NCBI GenBank assembly: GCA_963575745.1
Contig: CAUYUJ010000251.1
Coordinates: 1 to 64,000 of the forward strand
DNA from: Prorocentrum cordatum
Taxonomy: Eukaryota
Direction of reading: 5' to 3'
Length of the DNA stretch: 64,000 nt
Part shown: positions 8,701 to 59,310 of the stretch, piece after piece
Position numbering within the stretch: the first letter of the stretch is position 1
Layout: each line of letters starts with the position of its first letter
The notes under the pieces: generated by a model
What the model saw: only the letters and a program-made list of their open reading frames with translations
Databases searched by the model: none
What the model was told of the DNA's origin: nothing
Made by a program: the position numbers and the translations under genes

Positions 8701-10416
8701 TTCCCAACCATCCTGTGGTGTTGGGTCCTCGTTTTGAAGAGACAGCGCCCCGCGTCCCACCTCCTCTCCTCCTCCTCTTCTCCTCCTCCCCCTGGCTGCC
8801 GTCCGCATGCGTCCCGCACACCCATTTCGGCACACCCCTCACACGTTTCGTGGCCCCACAGGGAGCTCCACCGAAGGCCCCAGTGCTGCCGTCCGCATGC
8901 GTCCCGCACACCCATTTCGGCACACCCCTCACACGTTTCGTGGCCCCATAGGGAGCTCCACCGAAGGCCCCATGGCTGCCGTCCGCATGCGTCCCGCACA
9001 CCCATTTCGGCACACCCCTCACACGTTTCGTGGCCCCATAGGGAGCTCCACCGAAGGCCCCAGTGCTGCCGTCCGCATGCGTCCCGCACACCCATTTCGG
9101 CACACCCCTCACACGTTTCGTGGCCCCACAGGGAGCTCCACCGAAGGCCCCAGTGCTGCCCGCATGCGTCCCGCACACCCATTTCGGCACACCCCTCACA
9201 CGTTTCGTGGCCCCATAGGGAGCTCCACCGAAGGCCCCATGGCTGCCGTCCGCATGCGTCCCGCACACCCATTTCGGCACACCCCTCACACGTTTCGTGG
9301 CCCCACAGGGAGCTCCACCGAAGGCCCCACCCGCATGCGTCCCGCACACCCATTTCGGCACACCCCTCACACCACCGAAGGCCCCATGGCTGCCGTCCGC
9401 ATGCGTCCCGCACACCCATTTCGGCACACCCCTCACACGTTTCGTGGCCCCATAGGGAGCTCCACCGAAGGCCCCAGTGCTGCCGTCCGCATGCGTCCCG
9501 CTGCACCCCTCACACACTCCACTGCTATGCGTCCCGCACACCCATTTCGGCACACCCCTCACACGTTTCGTGGCCCCATAGGGAGCTCCACCGAAGGCCC
9601 CATGGCTGCCGTCCGCATGCGTCCCGCACACCCATTTCGGCACACCCCTCACACGTTTCGTGTTTCGTGGCCCCACAGGGAGCTCCACCGAAGGCCCCAG
9701 TGCTGCCGTCCGCATGCGTCCCGCACACCCATTTCGGCACACCCCTCACACGTTTCGTGGCCCCATAGGGAGCTCCACCGAAGGCCCCAGTGCTGCCGTC
9801 CGCATGCGTCCCGCACACCCATTTCGGCACACCCCTCACACGTTTCGTGGCCCCATAGGGAGCTCCACCGAAGGCCCCATGGCTGCCGTCCGCATGCGTC
9901 CCGCACACCCATTTCGGCACACCCCTCACACGTTTCGTGGCCCCACAGGGAGCTCCACCGAAGGCCCCAGTGCTGCCGTCCGCATGCGTCCCGCACACCA
10001 GGTGTGTGGCGTGCCGACATGGGCGTCGCGGCGCGCGGGCGCTGCCGTCGGGGTTCCCAGGGAAGCCCCCTGCAGAGGCGACGCTCAGAGTCACGAGTAC
10101 CGAGAGTCACGCAGACCCAAACTGTTCACAGTCGTATACATACATTTACACTGGGCGTATCCATGCACGCATTCATGCGAATAGAATCAATCGCGCGCAG
10201 ATTCATTCATAATCAGACTCGCTCGCGATCCGACTCGCACGCGCTCAAGCTTTCATATTCGGACCTATCGTCTTCGTTCGTGTTGTGTACACTGCCACGC
10301 ATTTCGGCACACCCCTCATACGGCTCGTGGCCCCATAGGGAGCGCCACCGAAGAAGATATTCACAATTGCGGTACTCTCAACTGCATATGGTTGGGTCCT
10401 TCGCCAGGCTAATTTC
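8701..10416 (+). mobile_element. Non-autonomous tandem-array element (Helentron/DINE-1-like), copy 1, 90-bp central array
   Basis: Head TTCCCAACCATCCTGTGGTGTTGGGTCCTCGTTTTGAAGAGACAGCGCCCCGCGT, then a CCT-rich tract, ~13 units of 90 bp (8795-9998), and tail CAACTGCATATGGTTGGGTCCTTCGCCAGG. Confidence 0.8.
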
Positions 10417-10629
10417 TGGTAATTCGTTTTCCCCCACTTCCAATATTTCCTTATATTTCCTGTGAGTCGACGATTAATAGTGTCTGTGTGTTTTTCCTCC
10501 TCTCGCAGAATGCAGGGGCCGCAGATTCCAAACCAGAACGCCCTACTCGAGGTCATGAATGATCGCGGCAACTCCCCAGACATCGGGCGTCTCGAACAAC
10601 AGCCGAGACGGAGGTTTTTCCTACTGCGC

Positions 10630-10740
10630 CTTGGGACCGTCAACAGAACGACTCAGGATGAAACCGATCGGTCCCGGGGAAGGGGTCGAGACCTCTGGGA
10701 GTCGACGTTGTGAAGCACTCACGACGTCGGGGGTCTGGGC
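10630..10740 (+). repeat. Dispersed repeat family ending GTCGACGTTGTGAA...CA(C/T)GACGTCGGGGGTCTG
   Basis: Similar copies at ~47900-48025 (+), ~50370-50498 (+), ~46832-46900 (-), ~51138-51190 (-), and a partial copy at ~59335-59390. Confidence 0.65.
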
Positions 10741-11539
10741 TCGAGGCCTGAAGCGATCGCGGCAACCGCGAGTCAACGGGCTCCACTTCTCCCGGCGGGT
10801 GGCGCACCAGAGCCGCCAGCGCCCAGGCGAGGGCTTCCCAACTTTCCAGCGGACGGGACGGGGGCTCCAAGGCACTCCGCCGACCTCACTGGCTTGGGCG
10901 GAAGGGAGGAGGGAAGAGGGCTGAGGGAAGCCAGCGGAAACCAGAAGGAATCCATATTAGAAACCCCCCTGGCGTCCCCAGGGAGATGCTACGACACCCC
11001 GAAGACTGCCAAAGAAATCAGGAGAGGAGGACATCCTCAAGATCTCTGAGGACATCTGGAGGATATCCTCAGGATAAGCTGAGGGATAGACTAGACTCGC
11101 CGCATGGGAAAGCATGGGCCCACAGCAACAAGACACTGGTCTGCTCTACTCGTCACGTGGCAACGCATGGGGTGCAGAACAAATGGCCGATTCCGCCGCC
11201 CTCGTTTTACTTCCGCCGCCTTTCGCCGAGGAAGAGATGACAACTCCCTCTATGCTCGAAGGCGAGGCCTTTTTGCGCGAACTCCACGATGGGGACCCGC
11301 CAGGCGGTCCACCAAGTCACCAGCATTCGGATAGGACCGACCAAGCTGGCCTGCGAGACTGCGGCGTGAGACATCGCGCGATCGCCCTGCTTCAAAGTCT
11401 TCTAAGTCACCGCAGAGGGCTATCCAGATCCAGAGGCTAGCAGCAGCGTTCGCCCAGGGCGGGGTGCGGCGCCGTTGGGCAAACGATGAAGGCAATTCCA
11501 CCAGCCCTTCAGAGCGTCAGTGGTTTACAGAGTTTCCTA

Positions 11540-11850
11540 TTGCAACCCCCCTTCTTCCCCCTTCGGGGAAGGGTTTAGCACGGCTCATTAATGAACACCC
11601 CCTCCCCCGCCCGCCCGGCAGCCAACCCAGACCCATGAGGGCACCCATGACAACCCCCTACCATCCCTATCAAACAAGTGCACAGCCTCCCAACCATTTA
11701 GGGCTCTAGCGCGTTTCCTCTTTCAACCCCGATTCTTCCCCTTTGGGGAAAAACTTATCACTGTTCCCTAGTATTAAACACCCGCTCCCCCAGGCGACCA
11801 GCGGCAACTAGGACCTAGGACCATGACCCCCCCCTTCCCTGTCAACAGAA
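11540..11850 (+). repeat. Two tandem copies of a dispersed ~130 bp module (TTCCCCCTTCGGGGAA...AAACACCC...CCATGAC...CCCTGTCAA)
   Basis: Copies at 11540-11670 and 11715-11845; another at ~59540-59665. Confidence 0.65.
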
Positions 11851-11917
11851 CATAAAAACACACACTCTGGGGCAGAATCTTGGGTCACGCTCGTGGCCCC
11901 CGCGAGCACTTTGTATT

Positions 11918-12575
11918 GTTCCCAACCGTCCTGTGGTGTTGGGTCCTCGTTTTGAAAGGACAGCGCCCCGCGTCTCTCCTCTCCTCCTCTCGTCCTCTCC
12001 TGCTCCTCCCCCTCCTCCCTCCTCCGATCCCTGCCTCTGCCCTCCGCATGTCAACCATTTCGGCACACCCCTCACACCCTTCGTGGCCCCATAGGGAGCT
12101 CCACCGACGGCCCCAGTGGCTGCGTTTGCATGCAGTTCCACCCCCATTTCAGCACACCTCTCACGCGTTTCGTGGCCCCATAGGGAGCTCCACCGAAGGC
12201 CCCAGTGGCTGCGTTCGCATGCGGTTCCGCCGCCATTTCGGCACACCCCTCACACGTTCCGTGGCCCCATAGGGAGCTCCACCAGAGGCCCCAGTGGCTG
12301 CGTTCGCATGCGGTTCCACCGCCATTTCGGCACACCCCTCACACGTTTCGCGGCCCCGAAGTGAGCCCCACCTAAGACCCGAGCGGCTGCGTTCGCGTGC
12401 GGGTCCACCCCAATTTCGGCACACCCCTCACACGTTTCGTGGCCCCAGAGGGAGCTCTACCGAAGGCCTCAGTGGCTGCGTTCGCATGTGGCTCGGGAGC
12501 TCCACCGAAAGAGATAATCACAACTCCGGTACTCACAACTGCATATGGTTGGGCCCTTTGCCAGGATATGTTTTC
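11918..12575 (+). mobile_element. Tandem-array element copy 2, ~89-bp array
   Basis: Same head at 11919, CT-rich tract, ~5 units, and tail CACAACTGCATATGGTTGGGCCCTTTGCCAGG ending 12565. Confidence 0.8.
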
Positions 12576-13289
12576 ACTGTGACGATGGGGATGCCCTCAT
12601 ATCATATCGCCTGTTTTACGGAAGGCCACCATCCCTGTCAAGAGAAAACAAGCAACATGCACTTCGCGGCAAAAGATGCATCATGCGCGGCCACCCTGCG
12701 ATTACTTGTGAGCGTTTTTTTATTCGACGTTTCGGCATTTGGCGGAAAGAGGGGGAGGGGGGGGGTCTGGCTCCAGACCTCTGCTTAGCGCGGCTGTTTG
12801 TAACAGTGCGTCCCATGGGGGAGACTCCACCTGCTCGAAACAGGCGCCCAAAACAGCCAAGACCTACTCCATGAGAGGGGGGGTGCAAGGGCCCGCGCCA
12901 ATCGGCAAAACACTGAATAAAAAACGACCGCCTTCCCATGGGTGTTTGACACGGACCGCGGGGGTGCTGGCCCACCAGGCACCATGATGGCCTCCTCGCC
13001 GCGATTGTGAACTGGTTTTCGACAAGGATGGTGGGGGCCGATATGTTTCCCGATGTGTGCTGTCACGTGCTCGGGCGCCCTTGGCACACTCCGCGCGTGC
13101 CCCAAACGTGGAGCACCTGGCGGCCTGGCGCGGCTGGACCATGCGGCACACATGGCGCACGTGGAGCATGTGGCGCATCTGGCGCGCGAGGTGTGCCTGG
13201 CACGCCTGGGCCCCAGGGGTGCCTGGCGCAACTGGATCGCCCAGCACGCGTGGCGCACCTTGCCCCATCGTGCACATGGGGTCCGTATT

Positions 13290-13590: not shown

Positions 13591-13729
13591 TCGCGAGGGG
13601 TTGGAGCGTCCAAAATGGCCTCGGCGAAGAAGCCACAATCATTGATTTTACTACCGTGTTGGCTACATTCTGGCTTCCGAGGGGGGGGCGTAATTGGAGC
13701 CTCCCTCTTATTTGATCGATCTCCTCCTA

Positions 13730-14830
13730 CATGGCCCCAAGATGGCCCCCGAGGCTCCCAAGGGTGCCCCGAGGGGGCCCCAAGAGGTGCCCAAGAGGCC
13801 CCAAAGGTCCCCCCCGCCAGAGGCCTCCAAGATGCCCCCCAGAGGCTCCCAAGAGACACCCAAGACGCCTCAAGAAGCACCCACGACGCCCCAAGAGGCC
13901 TCGGCGAGAAGGCCAACATCGCTGATTGTACTAAGGATTTGGCCACATTTGGGCCTCCTGGGGGGGACCCTTACGCATTACGGTCCCTCCTTTGAACGAT
14001 CTCTTCCAAGATGGCCCCAGAATGGCAAGGGTGCCCCAAGACTGCCCCAAGCGGAGCCCAGGAGACCCCAAGAGGCCCCCAAGATGAGCCCAAGAGGCTC
14101 CCAAAAGATTCCCAAGACGCCCCCAAAGCCCCTCCCCCCCCCCCGGGGCACCCATGACGCCCCAAAAGGCCTCGGCGAGAAGGCCAACATCAGTGATTTT
14201 ACTGACGTGATGGCCACGTGTTGGCCTCCTCGGGAAGACCTTAGTTGAGGAGCCCCCTTTGATCGATCTTCTCCCATATGGCCCAAGATGGCCTCCGAGA
14301 CTCCCAAGGGTGCCCCAAGAGGGCTCCAAGAGGTGCCCAAGAGGCCCCAAAGGCCCCCCCCCCAGAGGCAGGCCCCCAAGATGAGCCCGAGAGGCTCCCA
14401 AGAGACCACCCAAACGCCCAAAGAGCCCCCCCAGAGGCACCAAAGATGCCCTCAAGAGGCCTCGGTGAGGAGGCCAGCATCATTGATTGTTTCTTACGTT
14501 TTGGCCACATTGTGGCCTCCAGGGGGAGGGGGCCTGATTAAGGAGCCCCCCTCCTTTGAACGATCTCTTCCAAGATGGCCCCAGGATGGCCTCCGAGGCC
14601 CCCAAGGGTGCCCCAAGACGGCCCAAGAGGTGCCCAGGAGGCCCCAAGAGGCCACCGAGAGGCCCCCAAGATGCCCCCCCAGAGGCTCCCAAGAGACCCC
14701 CAAGAGGCCCCCCCTGCGGCACCCGAGACGCATCAAGGCCCTTCCAGACATCCAAGAGACTCCCAAGACGCTTCAGAAAATACCCGAGAAGCTCTCGGAA
14801 ACAATCCGGAGAGGCTCCGAGAGGCATCCA
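13730..14830 (+). repeat. CCCAAGA-rich degenerate satellite with ~270-300 bp sub-periodicity
   Basis: Recurrent GGCCCCAAGATGGCC/CCCAAGAGGC words. GGCCTCGG(C/T)GAG(A/G)AGGCCA(A/G)CATC recurs at ~13898, 14168 and 14458. Confidence 0.8.
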
Positions 14831-15034
14831 CGAAACCTCTGGTCTTTCTGCTCGCCCTCCTCCTCCTCCTCCTCCTCCTCTTCTTGGGTGTGGCTTCCAC
14901 CTGTTCCCAAATGCTAGGTAAACAATGGTAATACTTTGCCCGTGTCCTGATGGACAGACGCCCTTGACAACCCTCCTTTTCCTCATCCGCCTGTTCTTCC
15001 TGCTTCCTCCTGAATTTTCTCCCTCCCCTTCTCC

Positions 15035-15065
<31 letters not shown>

Positions 15066-17379
15066 TCCTTCTTCTCATCCTCCTGGTCCTCCTCCATCCC
15101 CCCCGTTCTTGGCGTAAGACATCTTGTCCACCTCTTTATTCCACTGGTGAGCCTTTCTGGGTGGGCTGGTGGGGTGACGCGAAATGTCTAGAATCTGGTT
15201 GACTCAAAATATGGAGCATGCGCGGGTGCCCCGTGACCACGCTGCGTTGGTTTCTGATACAGACATGGGGTCGCCAACACATTGCCTGCTACGCGTACTG
15301 TAGGCCGGAACTTCCCCACCATCCGTGGCATAAAACAAATACCCCAACGAAACACCCGAATAACAACTAAGGTGTGGCGGCGGGTGGACGCCTCGTCGGC
15401 TTGCGAAAACGATCCCATCATATTTTCGATGCGATAACGGAATTTATCTTGCTGACGTTCGTGGTGTCGACATGATGGCACGCACGCGCTTGGAATGACA
15501 TTACGTGCGTAACGACACCACTCTGGGCAGCCAGAATGGTGAGAAACCGGTGGCCCTCCCACACTTGCTGGACCTAGGACGCCTGGAATGGTGAGGACCC
15601 GATGCCCCTGCCACAATTTCAGGACCTGCGACGGCTGAGATCGAGCAGGAGCACCAGAGTGAGTCTCATTTCTGGACCTGCGAAGGCTGAAATCGAGCCA
15701 GGACATTCGCCCCCCCGCCCCCTGTGGAGATTCGTCTTGGATCGAAATCGAGCCCAGACACCGTAGTGAGTAGTCCTGGACCAAATCGAACCAAAACACC
15801 ATAGTGAGTCTCATTTCTGGATCTGGAAGGGTTGAAAACGAACCACTGCACGATAGGGGGCTGGCCGCATTGCAAGAACGAGTCGAACTAGAACACTAAA
15901 GCGAGTCTCATTTCTCGATCTGCGAGGGCTGACATCGAGCCAACATTCGCGCCCCCAAAATGGGACAATCTATAATCACATAACTCAAACACATCGGATT
16001 CGAGCCACATGAGAAGGCCGATCACTAGGCATCGACGACAACGTATGAACATTCGAGCCGCAGCAGAGGTGGTGCGAGGGCTCAGGAGGTCCATGAGCGC
16101 CCGGAAGCCAGAAAACGTCAACACGCTGACGTCAGATACGCATGAATTCCTGGCCTTCCGTCCCGGGGCCTGGGGAGGGCTCGGGAGGCCCCGGGGAGAG
16201 CCGCCCAGGGTCCTAGAAATCCACGAACACCGGAACAAAAATCAACCTCCGACCTCCGACCGTCCGTCCCAGGACGCGGGGAAGCCTCGGGAGACACACG
16301 CACGGGCGGTACCGTAGCTTTGACCGTGCATTGGAAGTCGTAAAGATCATCGCCGGGCGGGCCGCCCGACTTCCCATCCCCCTGATGCAAAGCTTAGGAT
16401 ACCGACGAACGACGACGGCAATGGACATCATCGGTGATGTCGTCGCGTCGCGACGTTGCTCAGCTTTGCGTCGCTGGGGGGAACGGGGGGGGGGGAGCGC
16501 GGGCTTCGCGTTCGCACTGCGACAGATTCGGCTACCGCCGCATGGGCGCGCCGTGGCGTTTCTGCTACGATCGCTTTCCGAACGGCGCAATCTGCGGCAG
16601 CGCGGTCGACAGTTTTTGTACCCGGCAAGGGCCAAGACTGTCCGCGGCGTCACCAAAGCCTCGTGGTGGGAGAAGTGCAAGGGGCGGAGATCTGGCTCGG
16701 CGGCTCAATGCTGCGCGGTCGCTTTCACGCGCGCCCTGGACGCTTCGCTTGGCGCCGCGCAACTGGCGTTGCAGCCTGCATGGGGAATGCGCCGCGCGAC
16801 GTGCGCGCGACGCAGCGAACTGATTCTGCAGGTTGATACCGCCACTCGCCCTAGCCAGCGCGGGGGCGCCCCCTGGCGTCGCTTTCGCGGAGGAGCCGAC
16901 GGAAGCCGCATAGGAGCCGATAGAAACCGCGCAGAAACCGCCCCAACCAAGTAAAAGTAAAGTTTACAACTTTGTAAGGTGTGCGGCGGTTTCTGCAAAA
17001 TGCAGTTTCTGCGCGCTTTCTACACGGTTTCTCTCGTTTCCTGCACGGTTTCTACAACGAAGAAGCAGCGGCGGCGTTCGGCTTCATTTAAAACTGGAAT
17101 GGGAAAGCGGCTGGCCAGCCACTTTCCTGTTCTATTCTGAATTTCGAGCGGGAACGGTCCGACGACGGCGACAACCGAGGGCCGCCTGGGACGCTGGCGA
17201 TGCGGTGGCGCCACTGGGCGCCCCCGCGCCGCGTCGTGTCGAAACGTGATCGGATCTACGCAAGGCGGACATATCACATGTGCACCTGGTCGACGCAGTG
17301 CGTTATCGAGCTCTGATGCGCGCGAGAAGAAAAACGACCATCCGCGCGAGATGATGCGTTGAGAACGCGCACAGGCTCC

Positions 17380-22540: not shown

Positions 22541-22694
22541 GTCACATTGATTATCCGACCGATCGTGGCGGACCCCTTCCGGGCCTCAAAACCTACACAA
22601 CTTTATGGAATATCGATGCTTCGGGCCCCTTGGATCTATCGGGGGTCCAAGACGGCCTCAAGACGGTCTCAACACGGCCTCAAGACGGCTCAAG

Positions 22695-23480
22695 GCGAAA
22701 GCTGCGGCCGCTCGAGCGGAATCCCTTCGCCGCGCGCGAGAAAAACAATGCCGAGGCACGGTGGCCCGACGGGGTTCTGGGCGACCGCCGTGGCGCGCCG
22801 CCCTGTCCTAGCTCTGCCCCCCCCCCCCTCCCCCTGTGCGCGCCGCCGCGAGCGTGAGCCGGCCGAGACCCTGCCAGCGGCTACCGCAGAAGCACGGTTG
22901 GCCAGCGGATCGCGCGCCGAAAGGGCTCGCGGCATGAGCGGAAACTCTCGGAGTTCCGCGCGGATTGGATCGACGACTTTCCGAATGAAAAGTATTGTCA
23001 CGAATGGAAAACCAAGGCGATGGAGACTCTCCATCTCATTCGGTGAATGGAGAGAGGCTGCCGACTGCAGATCAAGAGCTCAACTCCTCCAGAGAGGAGC
23101 ACCATGTACGAGGCTGAGAAGGACCTGAAAGTGAGAGGATGACGGCGAAGCCGTTTGTCTGCAATGTTTCGCAAACCGCCTCAGACTGTGTATATTCTCC
23201 CCAGCACCGACTTCCAAAAAGAGACCAGCTCAACGGGGGCCTCCAGGAGCTTGGTCTCCAAGAAATCTGCTCTGGTGAAAATTGCGGCCGCTCAAGCGAA
23301 ATCCATTCGCCGCGCGCTCGAAAAAGAATGCCGAACCACGGTGGTCTGGGCGGCAGCTGTGGCGCGCCGCCCTGTCCTAGCCCTGGTCCAACGATGTATC
23401 CCTGTTGCCCCCCCACCCCCCCGTCTCCCTGGGCGCACCGCCGCGAGCGTGAGCAAGCCGAGACCCTGCCTGCGGCTCCT
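22695..23480 (+). repeat. Diverged direct repeat pair (~190 bp)
   Basis: GCGGCCGCTC(G/A)AGCG...GTGGCGCGCCGCCCTGTCCTAGC...CGCCGCGAGCGTGAGC...GCCGAGACCCTGCC at 22695-22880 and 23277-23475. Confidence 0.75.
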
Positions 23481-27192: not shown

Positions 27193-27795
27193 TTCTCACA
27201 ACCATCCTGTGGTGTTGGGTCCTCGTTTTGAAGAGACGGTCCCCGCGTTCCTCCATCCTCATTTCTTCCTCCCCCTCTTCCATCCTCCGTGCGTTTGCAC
27301 CACCCAGTACAGCGCTTCGTGGCCGCATAGGGAGCTCCACCGAAGCCCCCAGTGGGACCGTCCGGGACGCATGAATTTGGCACTTTCACCCACCCAATAC
27401 AACGCTTCGTGGCCCCATAGGGAGCTCCACCGACGCCCCTAATGGACCACCGTCCGGGACGCATGAATTTGGCATTTTCCCTCGCCCAGTACAGCGCTTC
27501 GTGGCCGCATGGGGAGCTCTACCGAAGCCCCCAATGGGACATCCGGGATGCATGAATTCGGCACTTTCACCCAACAAATAAAGCGTTTGGCCCCATAGGG
27601 AGTTCCACCGACGCCCCCAATGGGACCGTCCAGGACGCATGAATTTGACATGCTCACCCACCCAGTATAGCGCTTCGTGGCCCCCATCGGGAGCTCCACC
27701 GAAGCCCCCCAGTGGGACCGCCCGCGTGCGTCCCACACGCCCAATTCTATGGCAGTTTCGCTCACCCAGTACAGCGTGGGACCTCCCGCATGCGC
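27193..27795 (+). mobile_element. Tandem-array element copy 3, ~89-bp array, tail missing (runs into CA array)
   Basis: Conserved head from 27198 and ~5 units with core CGCTTCGTGGCCCCATAGGGAGCTCCACCGA. Confidence 0.75.
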
Positions 27796-27802
27796 CCCCC
27801 CC

Positions 27803-28614: not shown

Positions 28615-28659
<45 letters not shown>

Positions 28660-29142: not shown

Positions 29143-29164
29143 TCCGTAGCCACTTTGGCTCAAG
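29143..29164 (+). other. Genomic copy of the dinoflagellate spliced leader (DinoSL)
   Basis: TCCGTAGCCACTTTGGCTCAAG versus consensus DCCGTAGCCATTTTGGCTCAAG: 21/22 match, full length. Confidence 0.92.
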
Positions 29165-29327
29165 GCTATGAACCGCCCGACGACCGCGAGTCCCTTCTCG
29201 GGCGTCTCTGAGCGCGAGGGGGTTCGCGGTCTGAGGCAACTAACTTCGAGCAAGGTTCTCTCTCCTGTGGCTGGCCTGGCCGTCATCCTGCTTCTCGCGG
29301 GCGCAGCTTCAGTGTGGTTGGGGAGCA

Positions 29328-37511: not shown

Positions 37512-37620
37512 ACACACACACACACACCCACACACACACACACAAACACCCACACACCCACACACCCACACACCCACACACCCCCATACCCCCACACCCC
37601 CACACCCCCACACACCCACA
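37512..37620. repeat. (CA)n/(CACACCCA)n tract at the LINE 3' end
   Basis: Directly visible. Confidence 0.95.
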
Positions 37621-42491: not shown

Positions 42492-43756
42492 AAATTATCC
42501 CAACGGAAGACCCAACCATATGCAGTTGTGGGTACCGCAATTGTGAAGATATTCTTCGGCGAAGCTCCCTATAGGGCCACGAAGCGCTGTACTGGGTGGG
42601 GGGGGAACGCATGCGGGTGGTAACGCTGGGGCCGTCGGTGGAGTTTCCTATGGTGCCACGAAGCGCTGTACTGGTGGCGGACGCATGCGGGCGGTGCCAC
42701 TGGGACCTTCGGTGGAGCCCCCTTACGGGGCCACGAAACGCTGTACTGGGTGGGTGAAACGCAGGGAGCAAGGGCTGTGCTGGGTGGTGGCGGACGCATG
42801 TGGGCGGTGCCACTGGGCCCTTCGGTGGAGCCCCCTATGGGCCACGAAACGCTGTATGGGTGGGTGGAACGCAAGGAGCAAGGGCAGTGCTGGGTGGTGA
42901 CGGACGCATGCGGGCGGTGCCACTGGGACCTTCCGTGGAACCCCCGATGGGGCCACGAAGCGCTGTACTGGGTGTGCGAAACGCAGGGAACAAGGGCTGT
43001 TGTGGGTGGTGGCGGACGCATGCGGGCGGTGCCACTGGGATCTTCGGTGGAGCCCCCGATGGGGCCACGAAGCGCTGTACTGGGTGGGTGAAACGCAGGG
43101 AGCAAGGGCTGTGGTGGGTGGTGGCGGACGCACGCGGGCGGTGCCACTGGGACCTTCGGTGGAGCCCCCCATGGAGCCACGAAGCGCTGTTCTGGGTGTG
43201 TGGAACGCAGGGGGCAAGGGCTGTGCTGGGTGGTGGCGGACGCATGCGGGCGATGCCACTGGGAACTTCGGTGGAGCCCCCTATGGGGCCACGAAGCGCT
43301 GTACTGGGTGGGTGAAGAGGGAGCAAAGGCTGTGCTGGGTGGTGGCGGACGCATGCGGGCGGTGCCACTGGGACCTTCGGTGGAACCCACGATGGGGCCA
43401 CGAAGCGCTGTACTGGGTGGGTGAAACGCAGGGAGCAAGGGCTGTGCTGGGTGGTGGCGGACGCATGCGGGCGGTGCCAATGGGATCTTTGGTGGAGCTC
43501 CCTATGGGGCCACGAAGTGCTGTACTGGGTGGATGACACGCAGGGAGCAAGGGCTGTGCTGGGTTGTGGCGAACGCACGCGGGCGGTGCCACTGGGGGCT
43601 TCGGTGGAGCTCCCTATGGGGCCACGAAACGATGTGCTGGGTGGGTGAAGCGCATGGAAGAGGGAGAAGGAGGAGGAGAAAAGGAAAGGAGGAGAGGAAC
43701 GCGGGGACCGCCTCTTCAAAACGAGGACCCATCACCACAGGTTGGTTGGGAAAAAC
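42492..43756 (-). mobile_element. Tandem-array element copy 4, 112-bp array
   Basis: Tail (rc) CCCAACCATATGCAGTTGTG at 42511, ~10 units, and head (rc) CTCTTCAAAACGAGGACCCATCACCACAGGTTGGTTGGGAAAAA ending 43755. Confidence 0.8.
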
Positions 43757-47560: not shown

Positions 47561-47608
47561 GACGGTACTCACAACTGCACATGGTCGGGTCCTTCGCCAG
47601 AATATTTG
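47561..47608 (+). repeat. Orphan tail of the tandem-array element
   Basis: CGGTACTCACAACTGCACATGGTCGGGTCCTTCGCCAGAATATTT with no array or head. Confidence 0.7.
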
Positions 47609-48590
47609 TTCCACGGCGTCGATCCTCAGAAGTCTCGGCTCAAGCCCCAGGAACGTATTCTTAAGATATATATTTTTATATATATATATATATATGAATA
47701 TACATATATATACATATATATATATATCCCCAGGAACGTATTATATATATATTGCGTCGTTTCCTGACACGACGAGGGCCCCAGAGGCCGAACACGCCCC
47801 AACAACTCCCGCCACGATCCTCTCACGGCGCGCAGGGGTCTGGGCTCCCGGGGCCCCCCTCGCCTCGTGAACCGCTCACGACGGCAACTGTTGTTTTGCT
47901 CGGCCTCGGGGGGCCCGCGCCGGGCCGTAGGACCGTCAAACCACAACTCGAAAGCCAGCCCTGGGGAACGAGTCGAGGCCTCAGGGGGTCGACGTCGTGA
48001 AAACGTCATGACGTCGGGGGTCTGGTGTCGGAGGGATCGCGCCGCATCGCCGATGCATCGTCGATGCATCGGCGACGTCGGCAACGCATCGGCGCCGCTG
48101 GCGTGGATAAGTTCGAGCTCCGCGTCGAGCGCCATCCTCCGACCCCACCTAGTCGGACCCCATCTGGGAAGCCTGGATCTCTGCCCCTTTCCCCCAAGAG
48201 GATGTTTAGGTTCGTCCGAAGTTGCTGGACGGTCCTGGGGGGGTGGACGTTGCCCCCACTCGCTTTTTGCGAAGAAGCAGTCGTGCCCCCCCCGACGCAG
48301 CGAGCCCTGCGGCGTGGTGCTTCGATCTCCAGCAGAAACTGGTGTCTCGCACAAATGGCTTGGTCCAAACTCAGACAGGGGAGGAGGGACCCTCCCGGGA
48401 GCCCGAGCCCAACCCCCTCCCACCTCCCCGCTCTCCTCCGGGCGCCCGCCAAAACGCAGTGTGGCGGACTTCGCGGCCGCGTAACTGGATTGCCGCGACA
48501 GTCCTGGGCCCCAGCGGCGACCTCCAGACACCAGAACGTGACAACTGACCCATGGAACAATCCTGCCGACCCATACCCCCTCGAATCATG

Positions 48591-49975
48591 AAATTATATC
48601 CTGACGAAGAACCCAACCATGTATACCGCGTTGTGGTCATTGCTTTCGGTGAAGCTCCGTGGGGCCACGAACCATGTGAGGTGTGCGCCCGAATTGGCGG
48701 GGAACCGCATGCGAACTGCGCCACGGAGACACTCGGTGGGGCTGCCTACGGGGCCACAAAGCGTGTGAGTGGTGTGCCGAAGCGGGCGCGACGCCCGCAT
48801 GCGAATTGCATCACGGCGGCACTCGGTGAAGCCGAAATTGGTCTGGAACCACACGCGAATTGCGCCACGGGGGCACTCGGTGGTGTGGCCATCGCTTTCA
48901 GTGGAGCTTCCTATGGGGCCACGAAACGTGTAAGGGGAGTGTGCCAAAACGGGAGTAACGCCCACATGCGAACTGCGTCACGGGCACTTCAGGTGGAGCT
49001 CCATGTGGGGCCACGAAACGCATGAGAAACGTGCCGAAACGGGCGTGACGCCCACATTGGATCTGCGCCACTTTGGCCTGAGGTGGAGCGCCGTATGGGG
49101 CCACGAAACGTGTCGGGGTATGCCGAGGCGGGGGTGACGCCAACATGTCAACTGCGCCACAGAAGCACTCGGTCGAGCTCCCTGTGAAGCCACGACACGT
49201 GTGAGGGGTGAGCCGAAACGGGCGTGACGGCCTGATGCGAACTGCGCCACCGTGGCTTTAGATGGAGCTCCCCCTGGGGCCACGAAACGTGTGAAGGGTC
49301 TGCCGAAACGGGTGGGGAACCGCATGCGAACTGCGCCACACATGAACTTGGTGTGGCTCCCTGTGGGGCGACGAAAAGGTGTGATGTGCCGAAAAAAGTG
49401 CGACGCCCGCATGCGAACTGCGCTACGGAAGCACTCGGTGGAGCTGCCTACGGGGCCACGAAACGTGTGAGGGGTGTAACGGCACGGGCGTGACGCCCAC
49501 ATGGGAATTTCGCCACATTTGCCTGAGGAGCGCTATATGAAGCTACGAACCGTGTGAGGGGTGTGCTGAAACGGGATTGACGCCCACATGCAAACTGCGC
49601 CACAGAGGAACTCGGTGAAGCTCCCTATGGGGCCACGAAGCGTGTGAAGGGTCTGCCGAAACCGGCGTGACACCCACATGCGAACTGCGCCACGGAGGCA
49701 ATCGGTGGAGCTCCCTATGGGGCCACGAAAAGTGCGATGGGGTGTGCCGACATGGGCAAAGATGATGCCGCTGATTTGATGGTGGTGATGATGATGCTGC
49801 TGATGCTGATGCTGATGATGCTGCTGATGATGCTGCTGCTGATGATGATGATCATCATCCTCATGCTGATCATCATGATGATCATGATGCTGATAATGAT
49901 AATGATAATGATAATGATAATGATAATGATGCTGATGCTGATGCTGATGCTGATGCTGATAATGATGATGATGCT

Positions 49976-50006
<31 letters not shown>

Positions 50007-50011
50007 ATTAC

Positions 50012-50081
<70 letters not shown>

Positions 50082-50150
50082 GCGGCGGCGGCGGCGGCGG
50101 CGAGGATGATGATGCTGATGCTGATGCTGCTGCTGCTGCTGCTGCTACTC

Positions 50151-50190
<40 letters not shown>

Positions 50191-50341
50191 GGAGGAGGAG
50201 GCGGAGGAGGAGGAGGAGGAGGAGGACAAAGAGGAGGACGAAGAGGATGAGAGGAGGGATGAGGGGGGAGGAGGAGTCAGGAGTGAGCGCGGGGGCTCTC
50301 TTCAAAAAGAGGACCCCACACCACAGGATGTTTTGGACAAA
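48591..50341 (-). mobile_element. Tandem-array element copy 6, diverged ~89-bp array, expanded (GAT/GCT/GGA)n microsatellite
   Basis: Tail (rc) near 48600-48620, ~12 degenerate units, microsatellite 49760-50275, and head (rc) CTCTTCAAAAAGAGGACCCCACACCACAGGATG. Confidence 0.75.
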
Positions 50342-51357
50342 TATCAGGGACATTTTTTTCTATATTTTTAGCTTCTGGGGCCCATACCGAGCCTCGGGAC
50401 CGCCTAAAAAACGACTCGGGATGAAAAGCCAGTCCTGGGGACTGTGTGGAAACCTTTGGGGGTCGACGTTGTGAACGATTCATGACGTCGGGGGTCTGTG
50501 CGTCAAGCAATCCTGTCGAGTCGCCAGGGAGGTCCAGGAGTGCGAAAGAGGGTCCGCAGTAATTCAGGAACAGAAGAGCAGTCAGGTCAGCGATGCGTTC
50601 CGGCGTGCTCGAGTGTCGCTGGAGCAGCCCAAGCACTGTCCTGACCAGTCGGCTGTGGCAACCGCCTCAAGGCCACGACGAGTCGGGCCCGTGCTCGGGC
50701 CTTCCGAGCATCCGATGCCCGAGGGGACCCGGGCGACCCGCATGCTGACCTTCGCGCTGCGCGCTGACAGCCCCTGCAACTAGAGTCCTGGCTGGCCCGG
50801 GCTGGCCCCCAACGCAACACGCCCCAGCCCTGGAGCGAGGAACGTCCCAGGGGCGCCGCCGGAGGCGGCGCCGCCGGCGTTCATGACCGCCCCGAGCGTA
50901 GATGTTCTCAAAGACGTTGGGGGCGTTTTTCTTGTCCGTTTTCGAGATCGACGTTTTTTCTTTGTTCTGGGAGCCGTTGGTTCCCCGCTTCGGAGGCCGG
51001 TACATTGAAAACTAAAAAAAAAGCCCCCTGCGTTTTCAAGAACAACTAGGCCCCAGACTACTCGGAGGGCCTGTTGAGGCCAGCAGAGACCACTTTGGGG
51101 CGGCCTGTGTTCAACCTGGAGCCTTGCCACGCTAAGCAGAGTCCGCGACGTCATGATTTTATCACCACGGCGACCCCTCGAGACCCACTCACCAGCAACG
51201 GCTTCTCGTCCTGAGCGAACTGTTCGGCGGCACCGTGGCTCGGCGAAGGCCCCCGTGATGCTGACAACGACCCCCCGAGAACTCCCGTCGTGCGTTTCTC
51301 ACGACGCGCGGGGATATGGCTGACCAGGTCCTGTCCTCGGATCCCGACCCCGGGGTC

Positions 51358-51451: not shown

Positions 51452-52737
<1,286 letters not shown>

Positions 52738-53072: not shown

Positions 53073-53212
53073 CGTCACTGGGAGATCTCCGAGCGGAAGG
53101 CTTCTGGACATTCTCGTCCACCTGGAGGGGGGCCTGGGAACCGCCAAAAACGGGTGGGATTGAATTGTGGATCCTGGGGCAAAGATGCGCGGTTCCAGGG
53201 GCACCGTGTGGG

Positions 53213-54630
53213 AAAAAATACCCTGGCGAAAGCCCCAACCATATGCAGTTGTGACCACCGTCGTTGTGAGCATCGCCTTCGGTGGACCTCCTCATCGGGC
53301 ACCGAAGCGTGCGAAGGGTGTGCCGAGATGTGGCGGGCCGCCATGCGAGTGAGGGGTGTGCCGAACTGGGGCGGCGGTGCCATGAGAACCCTCCCACGGG
53401 CCTTAGGTGGAGCTTTCTATGGGACCACGAAGCGTGTGATGGGTGTGCCGACATGGGGCGGCGGTGCCATGCGAATCCTGCCACTGGGGCCTCAGGTGAA
53501 GCCCCCTATGGGGCCAGGAAAGGTGTGAGGGGTGTGCCGACATGGGGCGGCGGTGCCATGCGAATCCTGCCACCGGGGGTTTAGGTGGAGCTCCCTATGG
53601 GGCCACGAGACATGCGAAAGGAGTGCCGCAAGGGGGCGGCGCTGCAGTGCGAATCCTCCCGCTGGGGCCTTCGGTGGAGCTCCCTATGGGGCCGCGAAGC
53701 GTGTGAGGGATGAGCCGAACTGGGGCGGCGGTGCCGTGGAACCCTCCCACTGGGGCCTTAGGTGTAGCTCCCTGCTATGGGGCCGCGAGACGTGTGAAGG
53801 TGTGCCGAAATGGAGCGGCGGTGCCATGCGAATCCTGCCACTGGGGTCTCCGGCGGAGCTCCCTGTGGGGCCACAAAGATTGTCAGGGGTGTGCCGAAAA
53901 GGGGGCGGAGGTGCCATGCGAACCGTCCCACTGGGGCGTCAGGTGGAGAGGCACATGAGGCCACGAAACATTTGCGGGTGTGCCGACATGGGGCAGCGGT
54001 GCCATGCGAACCCTGCCACTGGGGCCTCAGGTGGAGCTCCCTGTAGGGCCACAAGGAGTGTGAGCTGTGTGCCTAAAGGGGGCGGCGCTGCCATGCGAGC
54101 CCTCCTGCTGAGGCCTTGGGTGGAGCTCCCTCTGGGCCACGAAGCGTGTGACGGGTGTGCCGAAATGGGGCGGCGGTGCCATGCGAACCCTCCCACTGGG
54201 GCCTTAGTTGGAGCTCCCTATGGGGCAACGAGACGTGCGAACGGAATGCCGAAAGTGCGAACCCTCCCGCTGGGGCCTCAGGTGGAGCTCCCTATGGGGC
54301 CGTGAAGCGTGTTAGGGGTGTGCCGACATGGGGCGGCGGTGCCATGCGAACCCTGCCACTGGGGCCTCAGGTGGAGCTCCCTATGGGGCCACAAAGCGTG
54401 TGAGGGATGTGCCGAAAAGGGGCCGGAGGTGCCATGCGAACCCTCCCTCTGGGGCCTCGGGTGGAGCCCCGTGTGGGGCCACGAAGCGTGTGAAGGGTGT
54501 GTGCCGAAACAGAAGCATGGTGAGGGCAGAAGCAGGGACGGGAGGAGGGAGGGAGGGGGGGGGAGAGGTGGGAGACGCGGGGCGCTGTCTCTTCAGCAAA
54601 AGGACCCGACACCACAGGATGGTTGAGAAA
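53213..54630 (-). mobile_element. Tandem-array element copy 7, ~89-bp array
   Basis: Tail (rc) CCTGGCGAAAGCCCCAACCATATGCAGTTGTG, ~13 units, and head (rc) ending CCACAGGATGGTTGAGAAA. Confidence 0.8.
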
Positions 54631-55739
54631 GACGGCACCAGATGTCTGCGGTCTGGGGTCTGGCCGAAGCACCGCCTCTTGGAGGCACCACCCACGATCC
54701 AAATCTGGGCCGATTCATTGGCATCTTCGAACTACCGATTCGATCCGGGCGTTGCGACTCTTCCAGGTCGGGATCTGTGGATGTCATCTTGTCCCCCCTG
54801 CCTTTCACACCTGGCGTTTTCGCCAAATTTCGGGACTGGGGGCCCTCACAGGGCGGTCCGGCTGGAGAAACGCTCCAGACAGATGGGGCCGAGGGCTCTG
54901 GTTGTGATGTTTCGTGATGCTGCACTTTTTCGCAACGTTGGATCTCAGGGTAACCGATCCCAATCTCCGCTGGCATGGCCTGATCCCTACTGGACGACTT
55001 ACTCCCCCAGGTCGGGAATAGATGCTGGCCTCCTCGGTGTTTGCGGGGCCTAACTCCCCACCTGGGGCGATGGACTGGGGCGGGGCTGAGGCACATACAG
55101 TCGGGGCGTTGACCTAAGGAACCCTATATAAGGAACGAGGCCCCTTTTTTCCACAAGTTGAACTTCGATTTCGTATCGAACACACACGGAAAACCTGAGG
55201 CAAGCTGTGAAGCACTGAAGGAACGCGGAGCCCCTCCCCAACCAAAAGGGTTCCTTCTTCAGGGCCCCGACTGTACAGGACCCCCAAAACTGCATAACCA
55301 TCAACTTCTGCCATGACCTTCCGAAGGTCCGCGCAAGTTTCGATCGGCGCTGGACCGTCCCCGGCACGCGGAGCGAGCCGGGGCTGTCGCAGGAGGCGCC
55401 GCCGGGGAGATCCAGCCGCGGAGCTCCGAGCACGCACGTGTATGTAATTAGCCATTCCTGCTTCGAGGTGGGCCGGTGTGGCCTGAGATGCCACGGCCCG
55501 GTGGGGATGGGGATCGGTTGGACGGTGCTGAGTCCACCACCATGTGAGCCCAACAAGTATAGAACAAGAAACTGCTGAGGCTAAGAATCATCCGCCTCCG
55601 TGCCTGCACGGAGTGGGCGTGTTATAGTGCCTAGTGTGACGTCTGGGAGGTATTTTAATGTTTTCTAGGGCCCTCCCTCCTAGCACACGTGGTTAAAACA
55701 TCGCCCCCTCAGACGTTGTGTTCTGGCGCTCTTTTCAGC

Positions 55740-57610
55740 TCCAAACGGCCAGAATGGTCTCCAAGGCGGCTTCTATGGCAGTTCGGATGACACATGGACG
55801 ACCCAAGAATGGCCGAAGACGGCTCAAGTGGGCTCCCAAGGCGGCCTCAAGGCAGCTCAAGAGGTCCCCATGACGGCCAAAGATGGCTTCAAGTGGCCCT
55901 CCAAGGGAGCCCGAGGAGGCCAAACCCACTGAATGTCCGACCGCCCAAGACAGCCCATGGAACCTCCAAGATAGCTCCAAGACAGCCCATGCGGCCCACA
56001 AGAGGGGCCCGAGTCGGCCCAAGAGGACCCCAAGATCGCCCGAGAGGCTCCCAAGAGGCTTCCAGGATGGCCTGAAGCGCTCCAAGAGGGCATCTAGAGG
56101 CCCTCCAGGAGAATCCGACGCTAGACCCTGGATTATCTGTTGGTGTTGACGGAGTTTGAGGTCCTCGCCAATTTGAATTTCCGACCGCCTAAGGCGGCCC
56201 AAGAGACCTCCAATATAGCTCCACGATAGCCCATGAGGCCCACAAGAGAGCCCCGAGTCGGCCCAAAAGGATCCCAAGATCGCCCAACATCCTCTCAAGA
56301 TGGCCCCAAGATGGCCCTCAAACGCTCTACGAGGGCACCAATACTGCTCAAAGTTACCCTCAAGACGGCCTCCGAAGGCGTCAGCAATCGCTTCCCTGCA
56401 ACGGCCCAAGAAGCCCCACGAGACCCCCAAGAGGCCTCAAGAGGCCCCTAAGATGCCACCAAGAAGGCCCCCCAGGATGCTCCCAGGAGGCCCCCGGGAG
56501 ACCCCAAGATGGCCCCAAGAAGCTTTCTCCTCCTCGTCATCACTTCTTACCTCTCCTCCTCCTCCTCCAACTCCTACTCCTTCTCCTCCTGCTCGTCCCT
56601 ATCGCGCAGACGAAGACGATGTCGGGATCACGACCCTCCCCAATTTAAACCACTAGCTGAACTGCCGCGGACTGTGAACTCGATCTCCTATCTACCGCGC
56701 GGACGAAGACGAGGTCGATTTCACGACCCGTCCTTATCAGACCATTTGTCGGAATTGCGCTGTTCCTACACTCAGCCTCCTTACTGCTGCGCTGTTGCAC
56801 AGGCAAGGTCGCGAGGTTTGCCGCAGGCAGCTGTAAACATGCTTTAGCGGCCCATGATCGCCAGAGTCACGCGTCTCGACATCACGTGAACCATAGCAGG
56901 CAGAAGGAGCTGAAACGCAGTAGCTCCGTAGCCGCCGCAGCCGCGGGGGAAGCCCCTTCCCTTTGATCCCTCCCCCGTCGGGGGGAGGGGTCCCGGGGCG
57001 GTCCCGGGGGGGTCAGATACGCACCCCCAGTACCAAAACAAGCCAAGAGTGCACCAGGAGACCCCCGAGACGGTCTAAGAGGGCCCCCAATCGAGGTCCA
57101 AAACGCCTTCACGCTCCCACTGCCCAGGAGACCTCCAAGACGCCCCAAGAGGCCTCCGAAGGCACTCCCGAGAGGGCCACAAGAGGCAAACATCATTGAT
57201 TCGAGTTTGGGTTTAGACATACTTTGGTCTCGCCTGTTCCGATTCCCGCCGCTCCAAGGCTGCCGACGACGCCCTCAAGATCGCCTCAAGACGGCCCAAG
57301 AGGCTTCCAAGAACGCTCCATAGCATCCCAAGAGAACCCCAAGACAACCCAAAACGCCTCCAAGACGGCCCACGAGGCCCCCAAGACGGCTCCAAGAGCA
57401 CGCCTTGACGGGGAACCCGAACATACATTTCGAGCCCTCGGCCCCGAGAAGCTCTCAGGAGGCCCCAAGAGGTTCCAAGAGGCCCCAGGAAGCCCACAAG
57501 ATGCCCCCAGGACACCCGAACAGGTCCCCAAGAGGCTCCCAAAAGGCTCTCAACAGACCCCGAAATTCCTCCGCAGAGGCCCCCGAGAGCCTTCCCAAGA
57601 GACCCCAAGA
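55740..57610 (+). repeat. CCCAAGA-rich degenerate satellite blocks (interrupted ~56525-57040)
   Basis: Same word composition as 13730-14830 and 17380-22330. Confidence 0.75.
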
Positions 57611-57989
57611 AGCATCCCTGAGGACTCGGGTCCACGTCAGCGTCGTCGTCGCCGCCGCCGCCACCGCCGCCGTCGTCGTCGACATCCCCCTTCAGGGTCG
57701 GCGGCACTGGCCGTAAGGCCTTCGCAATCTTTCGCCCACAGGAGCGCCGTTCCCTCCCTGAGAGAGGACGCGGGGGGAGGGAGCGTCCTCCCTTGACAAA
57801 ATCCCGGCTCGCATTATGGACACTTAGCCCCGATCCAATTCCGCAGCTTAAGGCACCCCCGACATCGATCGGGTGCCAGGTCGGCCAACGTCCACAAGCC
57901 CAGTCGATCGACAGGACGGGCCGTAGTGGCGGATCGATCGGTCGGGGACTGAGCATTGGCACCAACACCAAACCAGACATCTAATGTAT

Positions 57990-59310
57990 TAATTCGCCTG
58001 GTGAAAAGACCCAACCACATGCAGCTGCGAGTGCCGCGAGGGAGATGAGACGAATGAGGAGGGGCGCAAACTCCGAGTAACGCACGCGGTATAGCCTTCT
58101 GCCACGGAACGTGTGAAAAGTGTGCGGACATGAGTCGGGAGGACGCCTGCGATCATCGCCATTGGAGCTTTCCGTGGAACCCCCTATGGGGCCACGAAAC
58201 GTGTGAGGAGTGTGCCGAAGTTGGGCGGCGGTGACATGCGAACTTTCCCACTAGGGCCTTAGCTGGAGCTCCTTATGGAGCCACGAAGCGTGTGAGGGGT
58301 GTGCCAAAATGGGGCGGCGATGCCACGGGACCACGAAACGTGTGAGCCGAAATGGGGCGGCGGTGCCAGGCGAACTTTCCCACAGGGGCCTTAGGTGGGG
58401 CTCCTTATGGGGCCACGAAACTTGTTAGGGGTGTGCCAGGATGGGGCGGCGGTGGCATGCGAACTTTCCCACTGGGGCCTTAGCTGGAGCTCCCTTTGGG
58501 GCCACGAAGCGTGTGAGATGTGTGCCGAAATGGGGCGGCGGTGCCATGCGAACTTTCCCACTTGGGTTTTCGATGGAGCTCCCTATGGGACCACGAAACG
58601 TGTGAGGGGTGTGCCGAAATGGGGCGGCGGTGCCATGCGAACTTTCCCATTGGGGCCTAGGTGGAGCTTCCTGTAGGGCCACAAAGAGTGTGAGCTGTGT
58701 GCCGACATGGGTTACCGATGCGAACTTTCTAACTGGAGCCTTCGGTGGAACTCCTTATGGGGCAACGAAACGTGTGAGGGTGTGCCGCAATGGGGCGGCG
58801 GTGCCATGCAAACTTTCCCACTGGGGCCTTCGGCGGAGCTTCCTATGGGGCCACGAAACGTGTGAGGTGTGTGTGTGTGTGCCGAATTGAGGCGGCGGTG
58901 TCATGCGAACTTTCCCACTGGGGCCTTCAGTGGAGCTCCCTGTGGAGCCACCAAACGTGTGAAGGGTGTGCCGAAATGGGGCGGTGGTGCCATGCGAACT
59001 TTCCCACTGGGGCCTCAGGTGGGGCTCCCTATGGGACCACGAAACGTATGAGAGGTGTGCCGCAATGGGGCGGCGGTGCCATGCGAACTTTCCCATTCGG
59101 GCCGCAGGTGGAGCTCCCCATTGGCCCATGGGGCCACGAAACGTGTGAGTTGTGTGCCGACATGGGATGGGCATGCGGAGAGCAGAGACAGGGAGGGGAG
59201 GGGGGAGGAGGATGAGGGGGAGGAGGTGGAGGGGGAGGATGAAAGAAAGAGGAACGCGGGGCGCTGTTTCTTCAAAACGAGGACCCAACACCACAGGATG
59301 GTTGGAAAAA
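57990..59310 (-). mobile_element. Tandem-array element copy 8, ~89-bp array
   Basis: Tail (rc) CCTGGTGAAAAGACCCAACCACATGCAG, ~12 units, and head (rc) TTCAAAACGAGGACCCAACACCACAGGATGGTTGGAAAAA. Confidence 0.8.

What the first reader, a model, noticed from the sequence alone, without database searches (positions are those of the whole stretch)
8795..59160. Array unit = constant scaffold with two array-specific variable windows
Seen: the unit is CGTTTCGTGGCCCCATAGGGAGCTCCACCGAAGGCCCCAGTG-[A, 8 nt]-CGCATG-[B, 13-14 nt]-ATTTCGGCACACCCCTCACA. A/B values are: copy1 CTGCCGTC/CGTCCCGCACACCC; copy2 GCTGCGTT/CGGTTCCGCCGCC; copy6 GCGCAGTT/TGGGCGTCACGCCC; copy7 GCAGG(G/A)TT/GCACCGCCGCCCC; copy8 GGAAAGTT/GCACCGCCGCCCC; copy4 GCACCGCC plus a longer B. 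The windows are fairly homogeneous within an array but differ between arrays, while the scaffold and central CGCATG are held. The geometry superficially recalls dual-spacer guide arrays. It could equally reflect conserved protein-binding boxes (chromatin organisation in histone-poor chromosomes, or Rep binding) under concerted evolution. Function is unknown.
Basis: partly seen in the sequence, partly recalled or inferred. Interest (0 to 1): 0.7.

Follow-up and report, generated by a model that had tools for sequence, protein, structure and literature searches.

The report
Satellite-carrying Helitron2-type elements, dinoflagellate
The repeat arrays are most likely the inner cargo of a very common, protein-less rolling-circle transposon in a dinoflagellate-like genome, not guide-RNA arrays, although one 25-base block of the repeat unit has stayed oddly unchanged while its neighbours diverged.

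Summary
The pattern is real but smaller than claimed. Seven arrays of a 75-112-bp unit each lie inside a dispersed element. It has a fixed 5' end (T-tract, 9-bp subterminal inverted repeat folded into a hairpin, CT-rich tract; 7 of 7) and a fixed 3' block (6 of 7). This is the HINE/DINE-1 (non-autonomous Helitron2/Helentron) layout. A spliced-leader relic points to a dinoflagellate. Between six arrays, 27 fixed changes fall in the 21 window columns and 11 in the 68 scaffold columns, none in a 25-bp core. Within arrays the windows vary no more than the scaffold (7.0% vs 10.1%), so they are not mutation hotspots. The windows are subfamily marks, not array-specific guides: they are homologous between arrays, one B is shared by two arrays, one outside array holds three unit types, and the tail of the 'scaffold' is replaced in two arrays. 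TIGR features, covariation, Rfam and target matches were all negative. Oyster HINE monomers show similar conserved boxes. No autonomous partner or empty site was shown. The scan already reported satellite-carrying Helitron2-like elements on other pieces of this genome. Open question: what holds the core constant.

The parts
8703..9999 (+). E1: 5' module (inverted repeat 8703-8711, hairpin to 8725, CT tract 8760-8793) and young array of 90-bp units (8795-9999, units 95% alike)
10000..10295 (.). Segment interrupting E1; begins with an inverted piece of a unit (10002-10026); itself repetitive in public runs
10296..10415 (+). Partial unit plus 3' block (3' inverted repeat 10389-10397, weak hairpin, A/T tract); either E1's own end or the end of a neighbouring copy
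11921..12575 (+). E2: complete short element, array 12055-12488
27197..27800 (+). E3: 5' module and array of a different unit type; no 3' block, runs into (CA)n
42492..43750 (-). E4: complete element; 109-112-bp units with an internal 18-bp duplication, last two units 75-79 bp
47563..47600 (+). Solo 3' block without array or 5' module
48593..50336 (-). E6: complete, old element (units 68% alike); about 500 bp of trinucleotide microsatellite after the 5' module; array about 48640-49757
53212..54627 (-). E7: complete element, array about 53290-54510
57988..59306 (-). E8: complete element, sister of E7 (same B window), array about 58100-59166
8938..8962 (+). Example of the 25-bp core of the unit; no fixed change among six array consensuses; its last copy opens the 3' block
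29144..29164 (+). Dinoflagellate spliced-leader relic (1 mismatch); context only, indicates the host lineage
   Evidence: the same string occurs in dinoflagellate papers of the listing

Best explanation
The arrays are the central tandem repeats of a very high-copy, non-autonomous rolling-circle transposon family (HINE/DINE-1-like, Helitron2 group) in a dinoflagellate-like genome. Shown: shared ends with sharp boundaries, an asymmetric inverted repeat, a 5' hairpin, a CT tract, T-rich flanks, both orientations, and no protein. Inferred: a RepHel made elsewhere copies the element by its ends. The unit arose by duplication of the stretch between the CT tract and the start of the 3' block, and local duplication or slippage then homogenises each array or block of units. 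A and B are therefore subfamily-diagnostic sites inherited from whichever master copy was amplified. The 25-bp core stays fixed most likely because copies that transpose need it: its last copy is part of the right-hand module (a possible RepHel-binding or folding site; about even odds against the rivals below). After insertion the whole unit decays evenly.
For: 5' module in 7 of 7 arrays, with its first 33 bases 28-33 identical to consensus. 3' block in 6 of 7 plus one solo copy. Inverted repeat 9 bp perfect in E1/E1b and 7-8 bp in E2, E4, E7 and E8, about 20 bp from the 3' end. 5' hairpin in the minimum-energy fold of 2 of 2 ends folded. Public contigs break off at 8700 into unrelated flanks (175 contigs, agreement 0.35) and join 3' end to 5' end (10415 to 8700 or 8703) in 3 of 4 runs; 3,344-140,694 contigs were laid per run. 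This matches the HINE layout in PMC7492417 and PMC4067079 and the Helitron2 ends in PMC3627910 (passages). Oyster HINE subfamilies share two conserved monomer boxes with the rest dissimilar (PMC7492417, section 6). E3 and E4 share both a variant 5' module and the variant tail. Arrays end just after the core in 5 of the 6 window 3' ends that follow an array or partial unit (E8 is degenerate) and in L002. Polymorphism versus fixed change: 74 and 27 in windows, 347 and 11 in scaffold, Fisher p about 1e-11. A Helitron2-like RepHel element is in print for Symbiodinium microadriaticum (PMC8788227, one passage).
Against: No autonomous partner with these ends was found (no genome held; no RepHel among 186 frames scanned). 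No empty site in the window or L001-L003, so exact ends, TT insertion and absence of a target duplication are not proven. The inverted repeat is shorter than the 11-15 bp usual for HINEs and was not recovered in E6. The 3' hairpin is weak, and none of nine folded ends or units beat shuffles (z from -1.07 to 0.62). Terminal copies of the core are no better kept than inner ones. The Fisher test treats related arrays and columns as independent, and the windows were chosen after seeing the data. It rests on six arrays.
Confidence: 0.72

Rival explanations
1. Same element, but the core is constant without selection. Short gene-conversion tracts between arrays keep the long identical block uniform, while the two windows are rewritten in jumps by out-of-register exchange: A and the start of B behave like two copies of a short internal sub-repeat.
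For: A windows resemble the first 8 nt of B windows more than shuffles do (mean 3.06 vs 2.40 of 8, 0 of 3000 shuffles; E4's A equals the start of E7/E8's B, p 0.015). E4's long unit came from an internal duplication. L002 changes unit type in blocks. The same scaffold variant at column 12 recurs in several arrays.
Against: Conversion would have to spare sites 13 bp away and keep a 6-bp island between two diverged windows. Whole-unit self-similarity was not above chance in 8 of 9 units tested. The A-B pairs are not independent.
Confidence: 0.3
2. The core is a binding site for a host chromatin protein, and the element spreads clusters of these sites through histone-poor chromosomes; host-level or element-level selection keeps it.
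For: No fixed change in 25 columns among six arrays and 2 among ten unit types. The core holds short dyads and is present in marine contigs and in runs labelled as four organisms.
Against: Resident copies decay in the core as fast as in the windows (8.2% vs 7.0%), which argues against host selection on inserted arrays. No footprint data were available.
Confidence: 0.12
3. The arrays are TIGR-like dual-spacer guide arrays processed into unit-length RNAs.
For: Two short variable windows split by a 6-nt constant island.
Against: The unit is 75-112 bp, not 36. Units repeat the same windows. Windows are related by descent. Box polarity is not met and there is no target excess in 55,147 non-element bases. 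No covariation in 7 predicted pairs. No Rfam hit. No Nop or nuclease family in 186 frames.
Confidence: 0.02
4. The element is a MITE-like derivative of a cut-and-paste DNA transposon with short subterminal repeats and an internal satellite.
For: An inverted repeat joins the two ends; there is no coding region; DINE-1-like elements were once filed as MITEs (PMC4067079 passage).
Against: The repeat is asymmetric (at the 5' end, but about 20 bp inside the 3' end). One-ended copies and head-to-tail joints occur. No duplicated target was seen by eye in six flank pairs.
Confidence: 0.1

Closest known systems
Cg_HINE elements of the Pacific oyster (PMC7492417; passages and section 6 read, supplements not read)
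   Same: 5' subTIR with inverted partner, microsatellite, short array of tandem units, 3' subTIR and palindrome, T-rich flanks; subfamilies whose monomers share conserved boxes; elements with consecutive arrays of related monomers.
   Different: Units here are 75-112 bp and GC-rich (oyster 138-181 bp, 31-45% GC); inverted repeat 7-9 bp rather than 11-12; 3' hairpin weak; host is dinoflagellate-like.
DINE-1 / HINE of Drosophila and mites (PMC4067079; passages read)
   Same: Non-coding, very high copy, subTIRs, inverted repeat near the 5' subTIR, microsatellite, central repeats, T-rich sites.
   Different: There the autonomous Helentron partners and empty sites were shown; here neither is. The subTIR is shorter.
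Helitron2 group (PMC3627910; passages read); Helitron2-like element of Symbiodinium microadriaticum (PMC8788227; one passage)
   Same: [quoted passage not shown]
   Different: No RepHel here; sequence relationship to the Symbiodinium element was not tested.
Root-knot nematode satellites with conserved boxes (PMC3694981; abstract only)
   Same: Diverged satellite monomers keep short conserved motifs, proposed to act in rearrangement or protein binding.
   Different: Those are classical arrays; here the arrays are short and carried inside mobile ends.
TIGR arrays (PMC12045711; passages read)
   Same: Two short variable windows per unit separated by a short constant island.
   Different: 36-nt units, 8-12-nt repeats bounded by UG and CCA, variable spacers, adjacent Nop-domain gene, found in prokaryotes and their viruses; none of these holds here.

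Membership tests
Helitron2 / HINE (non-autonomous) | Short asymmetric terminal inverted repeat (8-15 bp): at the 5' end and 20-30 bp inside the 3' end | tested here: met
   9 bp in E1/E1b, 8 in E4, 7 in E2, E7 and E8, not recovered in E6; 19-26 bp from the end of the block. Below the 11-bp lower bound used in PMC11417382 and PMC4067079.
Helitron2 / HINE (non-autonomous) | 5' hairpin formed by the 5' repeat and a downstream partner | tested here: met
   Present in the minimum-energy fold of E1 and E8 ends, though energy is not better than shuffles; sequence kept in 7 of 7.
Helitron2 / HINE (non-autonomous) | 3' stem-loop after the 3' repeat | tested here: inconclusive
   Only a 3-5-bp stem can be drawn; folds of three 3' ends differ and are not significant.
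Helitron2 / HINE (non-autonomous) | Microsatellite and central tandem repeats between two conserved modules | tested here: met
   CT-rich tract and array after the 5' module in 7 of 7; 3' block in 6 of 7.
Helitron2 / HINE (non-autonomous) | Insertion between T residues with no target-site duplication, shown by empty sites | tested here: inconclusive
   T-rich tracts flank both ends and no duplication was seen, but no empty site exists in the window or L001-L003.
Helitron2 / HINE (non-autonomous) | Autonomous RepHel partner sharing the termini | not testable with these tools
   No genome is held; none in the window or in 3 metagenome loci.
TIGR array | 36-nt unit of two alternating 8-12-nt repeats and 9-12-nt spacers | tested here: not met
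   73 of 78 units are 74-113 bp long; the long constant block is over 50 bp.
TIGR array | Spacers variable from unit to unit | tested here: not met
   Within-array identity A 0.82-1.00 and B 0.63-1.00 in the seven window arrays; windows no more variable than scaffold within arrays.
TIGR array | CCA before and UG after each spacer | tested here: not met
   One unit of each of eight arrays was tested on both strands: no array has both windows so framed; the recurring hit lies in the constant part.
TIGR array | Adjacent Nop-domain (Tas) gene | tested here: not met
   No such Pfam family in 36 long frames and 150 of 153 shorter frames; frames under 110 aa and spliced genes were not covered.
TIGR array | Processing into unit-length RNAs | not testable with these tools
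   All 24 listed runs were contigs, which show no RNA ends.

The most novel reading that the evidence does not exclude
The 25-bp core and the 6-bp island are sequence-specific protein-binding sites under purifying selection, and a Helitron2-type element has planted clustered, regularly spaced copies of them at very many places in dinoflagellate chromosomes. That would give a first candidate cis-element for organising these histone-poor chromosomes, or show that the central repeats of HINEs are multiplied transposase-binding sites rather than passive cargo.
Probability: 0.15. Interest if true: 0.7.

Novelty: new member of a known kind. Interest (0 to 1): 0.3.

Why it matters
As it stands, it adds a dinoflagellate family to the known link between Helentron-type elements and dispersed satellites. 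These elements fill about 8.7 kb of this 64-kb window. The one testable extra is the contrast between polymorphism and fixed change: a short core is held between transposing lineages but decays in resident copies. If that survives a genome-wide test, it points to a functional site inside HINE central repeats, which are usually treated as passengers.

Tried and rejected
Rfam (0 hits) and tRNA scan (0). Pfam on 36 long and 150 of 153 shorter frames: only sub-threshold hits (RVT_1, CBM_14, Collagen, Ribosomal_60s), with no RepHel, Nop or TnpB/Fanzor. Exact-pattern scans: viral contigs 0 in three scans, prokaryote genomes 0 in two, metagenome contigs 3 loci, two of them nearly the same sequence. 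Consensus folding of 16 units: one 7-pair hairpin in the core, 0 pairs with changes on both sides; single folds no better than shuffles. A/B target search in 55,147 non-element bases: 25 vs 23.9 (A exact), 6 vs 3.5 (B, 1 mismatch), 64 vs 56.6 (B, 2 mismatches), none beyond 40 shuffles. Joined A/B targets were absent for the two inverted geometries; only this window could be searched. CpG decay as cause of the windows: rejected, CpG transitions 0.050 vs 0.044-0.057 elsewhere. Mutation hotspot: rejected. Empty-site search: none. A symmetric dyad around the central palindrome of the scaffold was noticed, but its right arm is broken in several subfamilies, so it is not used. Literature searches that found no paper on this element or on dinoflagellate HINEs. 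HELIANO main text and one supplementary file have no dinoflagellate terms. Subscription papers, Repbase and unread supplements (oyster Table S2, PMC8788227 figures) may bear on novelty.
Full report
Context. No genome is held for this window. The DNA is mostly 55-70% GC and crowded with microsatellites and short repeats. A spliced-leader relic with one mismatch lies at 29144-29164, against 0 in 100 shuffles. I recalled the motif; the same string occurs in dinoflagellate papers of a search listing. Runs that hold the repeat are labelled as four coded organisms and marine metagenomes. I infer a dinoflagellate host.

Observation. The anchor of the unit has 45 matches with up to 3 mismatches and none in 100 shuffles. 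They form seven arrays: E1-E3 on the + strand, and E4, E6, E7 and E8 on the - strand. With one outside array (L002) I cut 78 units and aligned the 73 that are 74-113 bp long. For the column test I used the 51 units of the 89-90-bp type from six arrays, leaving out E3, E4 and L002 units 7-14. Array consensuses differ by at least 27 changes in the 21 columns of A and B and by 11 in the other 68 columns. The first 25 columns and the central 6-mer have none. The best pair of windows in 300 column shuffles held 17.4 changes on average and 23 at most. Without E8 and L002, which are kin of E7, the counts are 25 and 8. So the unevenness is real.

The windows are not hotspots. Within arrays 7.0% of window cells and 10.1% of scaffold cells differ from the array consensus, and CpG sites mutate no faster. 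Polymorphism against fixed change gives Fisher p of about 1e-11, and still about 1e-10 when distinct alleles are counted. The test assumes independence that six related arrays do not have, and the windows were chosen after the fact.

The scaffold is not constant throughout. Columns 26-38 carry 7 fixed changes, and the 20-nt tail fits 37 of 59 window units and none of the 14 in E3 and E4. The windows are not array-specific. E7 and E8 share their commonest B, and E6 and L002 share an A. Seven of 73 units have their nearest unit in another array. L002 runs through three unit types in blocks of 6, 3 and 5. A windows of different arrays are 48% identical against 27% for shuffles, and B windows 54% against 43%, so they descend from common ancestors.

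What the arrays sit in. All seven arrays follow the same 5' module: a T-rich tract, about 45 conserved bases, then a CT-rich tract. The first 33 bases match the consensus at 28-33 positions. Six are followed by a conserved 3' block, and a solo block lies at 47563-47600. E1's block is separated from its array by about 300 bp that start with an inverted piece of a unit, so it may belong to a neighbouring copy. The first bases of the element are repeated in inverted form about 20 bp inside the 3' end: 9 bp perfect for E1/E1b, 8 for E4, 7 for E2, E7 and E8, and not recovered in the old copy E6. The 5' repeat pairs with the following bases in the minimum-energy fold.

Evidence from public runs. In four runs 3,344 to 140,694 contigs were laid on 8400-12800. 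In one run 175 contigs leave the element at 8700 into unrelated sequence (agreement 0.35). Joints from 10415 back to 8700 or 8703 occur in three of the four runs, as expected of head-to-tail copies or circles. Depth there is no copy number.

Comparison. This is the layout given for oyster HINEs: 5' subTIR, inverted partner, microsatellite, tandem array, 3' subTIR, palindrome and T-rich sites (PMC7492417, passages). It is also that of DINE-1 (PMC4067079, passages) and of Helitron2 ends (PMC3627910, passages). The oyster paper also reports monomer subfamilies that share two conserved segments while the rest is dissimilar, and elements with consecutive related arrays. A Helitron2-like RepHel element is reported in Symbiodinium microadriaticum (PMC8788227, one passage). 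Three features are weak or missing here: the 3' hairpin is 3-5 bp and not significant, no empty site was found, and no autonomous partner is in reach. I file it as a likely HINE-type member, not a proven one.

Guide-array test. TIGR arrays have 36-nt units, 8-12-nt repeats bounded by UG and CCA, variable spacers and a Nop-domain gene (PMC12045711, passages). None of the four holds here. A/B windows match the 55,147 non-element bases no more than shuffles do, which is a weak test on one window. Sixteen units give one 7-pair hairpin in the core with no pair changed on both sides, and Rfam gives nothing. Processing into small RNA could not be tested because all runs were contigs.

Mechanism. Shown: ends, layout, high abundance, subfamily structure (E3 and E4 share a variant 5' module and the variant tail), and uneven divergence between lineages with even decay inside arrays. 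Inferred: movement by a RepHel in trans, and birth of the unit by duplication of the stretch from the CT tract to the start of the 3' block. Arrays mostly begin near the central 6-mer or just after it and end just after the core. Local duplication then homogenises arrays. For the constant core I favour a requirement in transposing copies, since its last copy opens the right-hand module. Conversion between arrays with jump-like rewriting of the windows is a serious rival. A windows resemble the start of B windows (3.06 vs 2.40 of 8, with non-independent pairs; one exact match, p 0.015). A host chromatin role is possible, but resident cores decay at 8.2%, which argues against host selection.

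Prior notes and print. My reading was recorded before I saw earlier notes. The scan has several unchecked notes on satellite-carrying Helitron2-like elements and on Helitron transposase genes on other pieces of this genome. Sequence look-ups found no look-alike, so I cannot say whether they are the same family. Six paper searches found no description of this element or of dinoflagellate HINEs. The library lacks most subscription papers and Repbase.

Verdict. A new member of a known kind. Interest is 0.3, kept above the floor by the unexplained invariance of the 25-bp core.

Noticed in passing
window 29144-37510 (+): Long decayed stretch that looks like a LINE (weak RVT_1 hit at 33852-34628, E 0.0086, below cut-off). 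It begins exactly with a spliced-leader relic and has (CA)n on both sides (27804-29142, 37513-37620). Possibly a trans-spliced LINE that targets CA repeats; it follows E3, which lacks its 3' end.
   Followed up: partly
L001 1500-1690 and L003 (-): The 5' module and CT tract are followed not by an array but by a spliced-leader relic (3 mismatches) and gene-like sequence: a retrocopy inserted in, or captured by, the element.
   Followed up: partly
window about 12630 (+), 44170 (-), 59740 (-): A short end motif resembling the 5' repeat of this element recurs beside T/A tracts; perhaps ends of a sister family.
   Followed up: no
window 50330-50485, 59310-59390, 47900-48000, 10620-10715, 415-465, 62377-62426: The upstream flanks of E6 and E8 belong to another dispersed repeat found at several places in the window, so the element inserts in or next to that repeat more than once.
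   Followed up: partly
window 13700-26000, 38000-39050, 55700-57600: Many degenerate 10-11-bp and 21-22-bp repeats of one type on both strands; the same type is seen in L001 and L003.
   Followed up: no
window 31905-32336: Unrelated 108-bp tandem repeat (4 copies, 85% matches) inside the LINE-like stretch.
   Followed up: no
window 47000-47480 and 51500-51620: Two small stretches with inverted ends seen by eye, possibly MITE-like.
   Followed up: no
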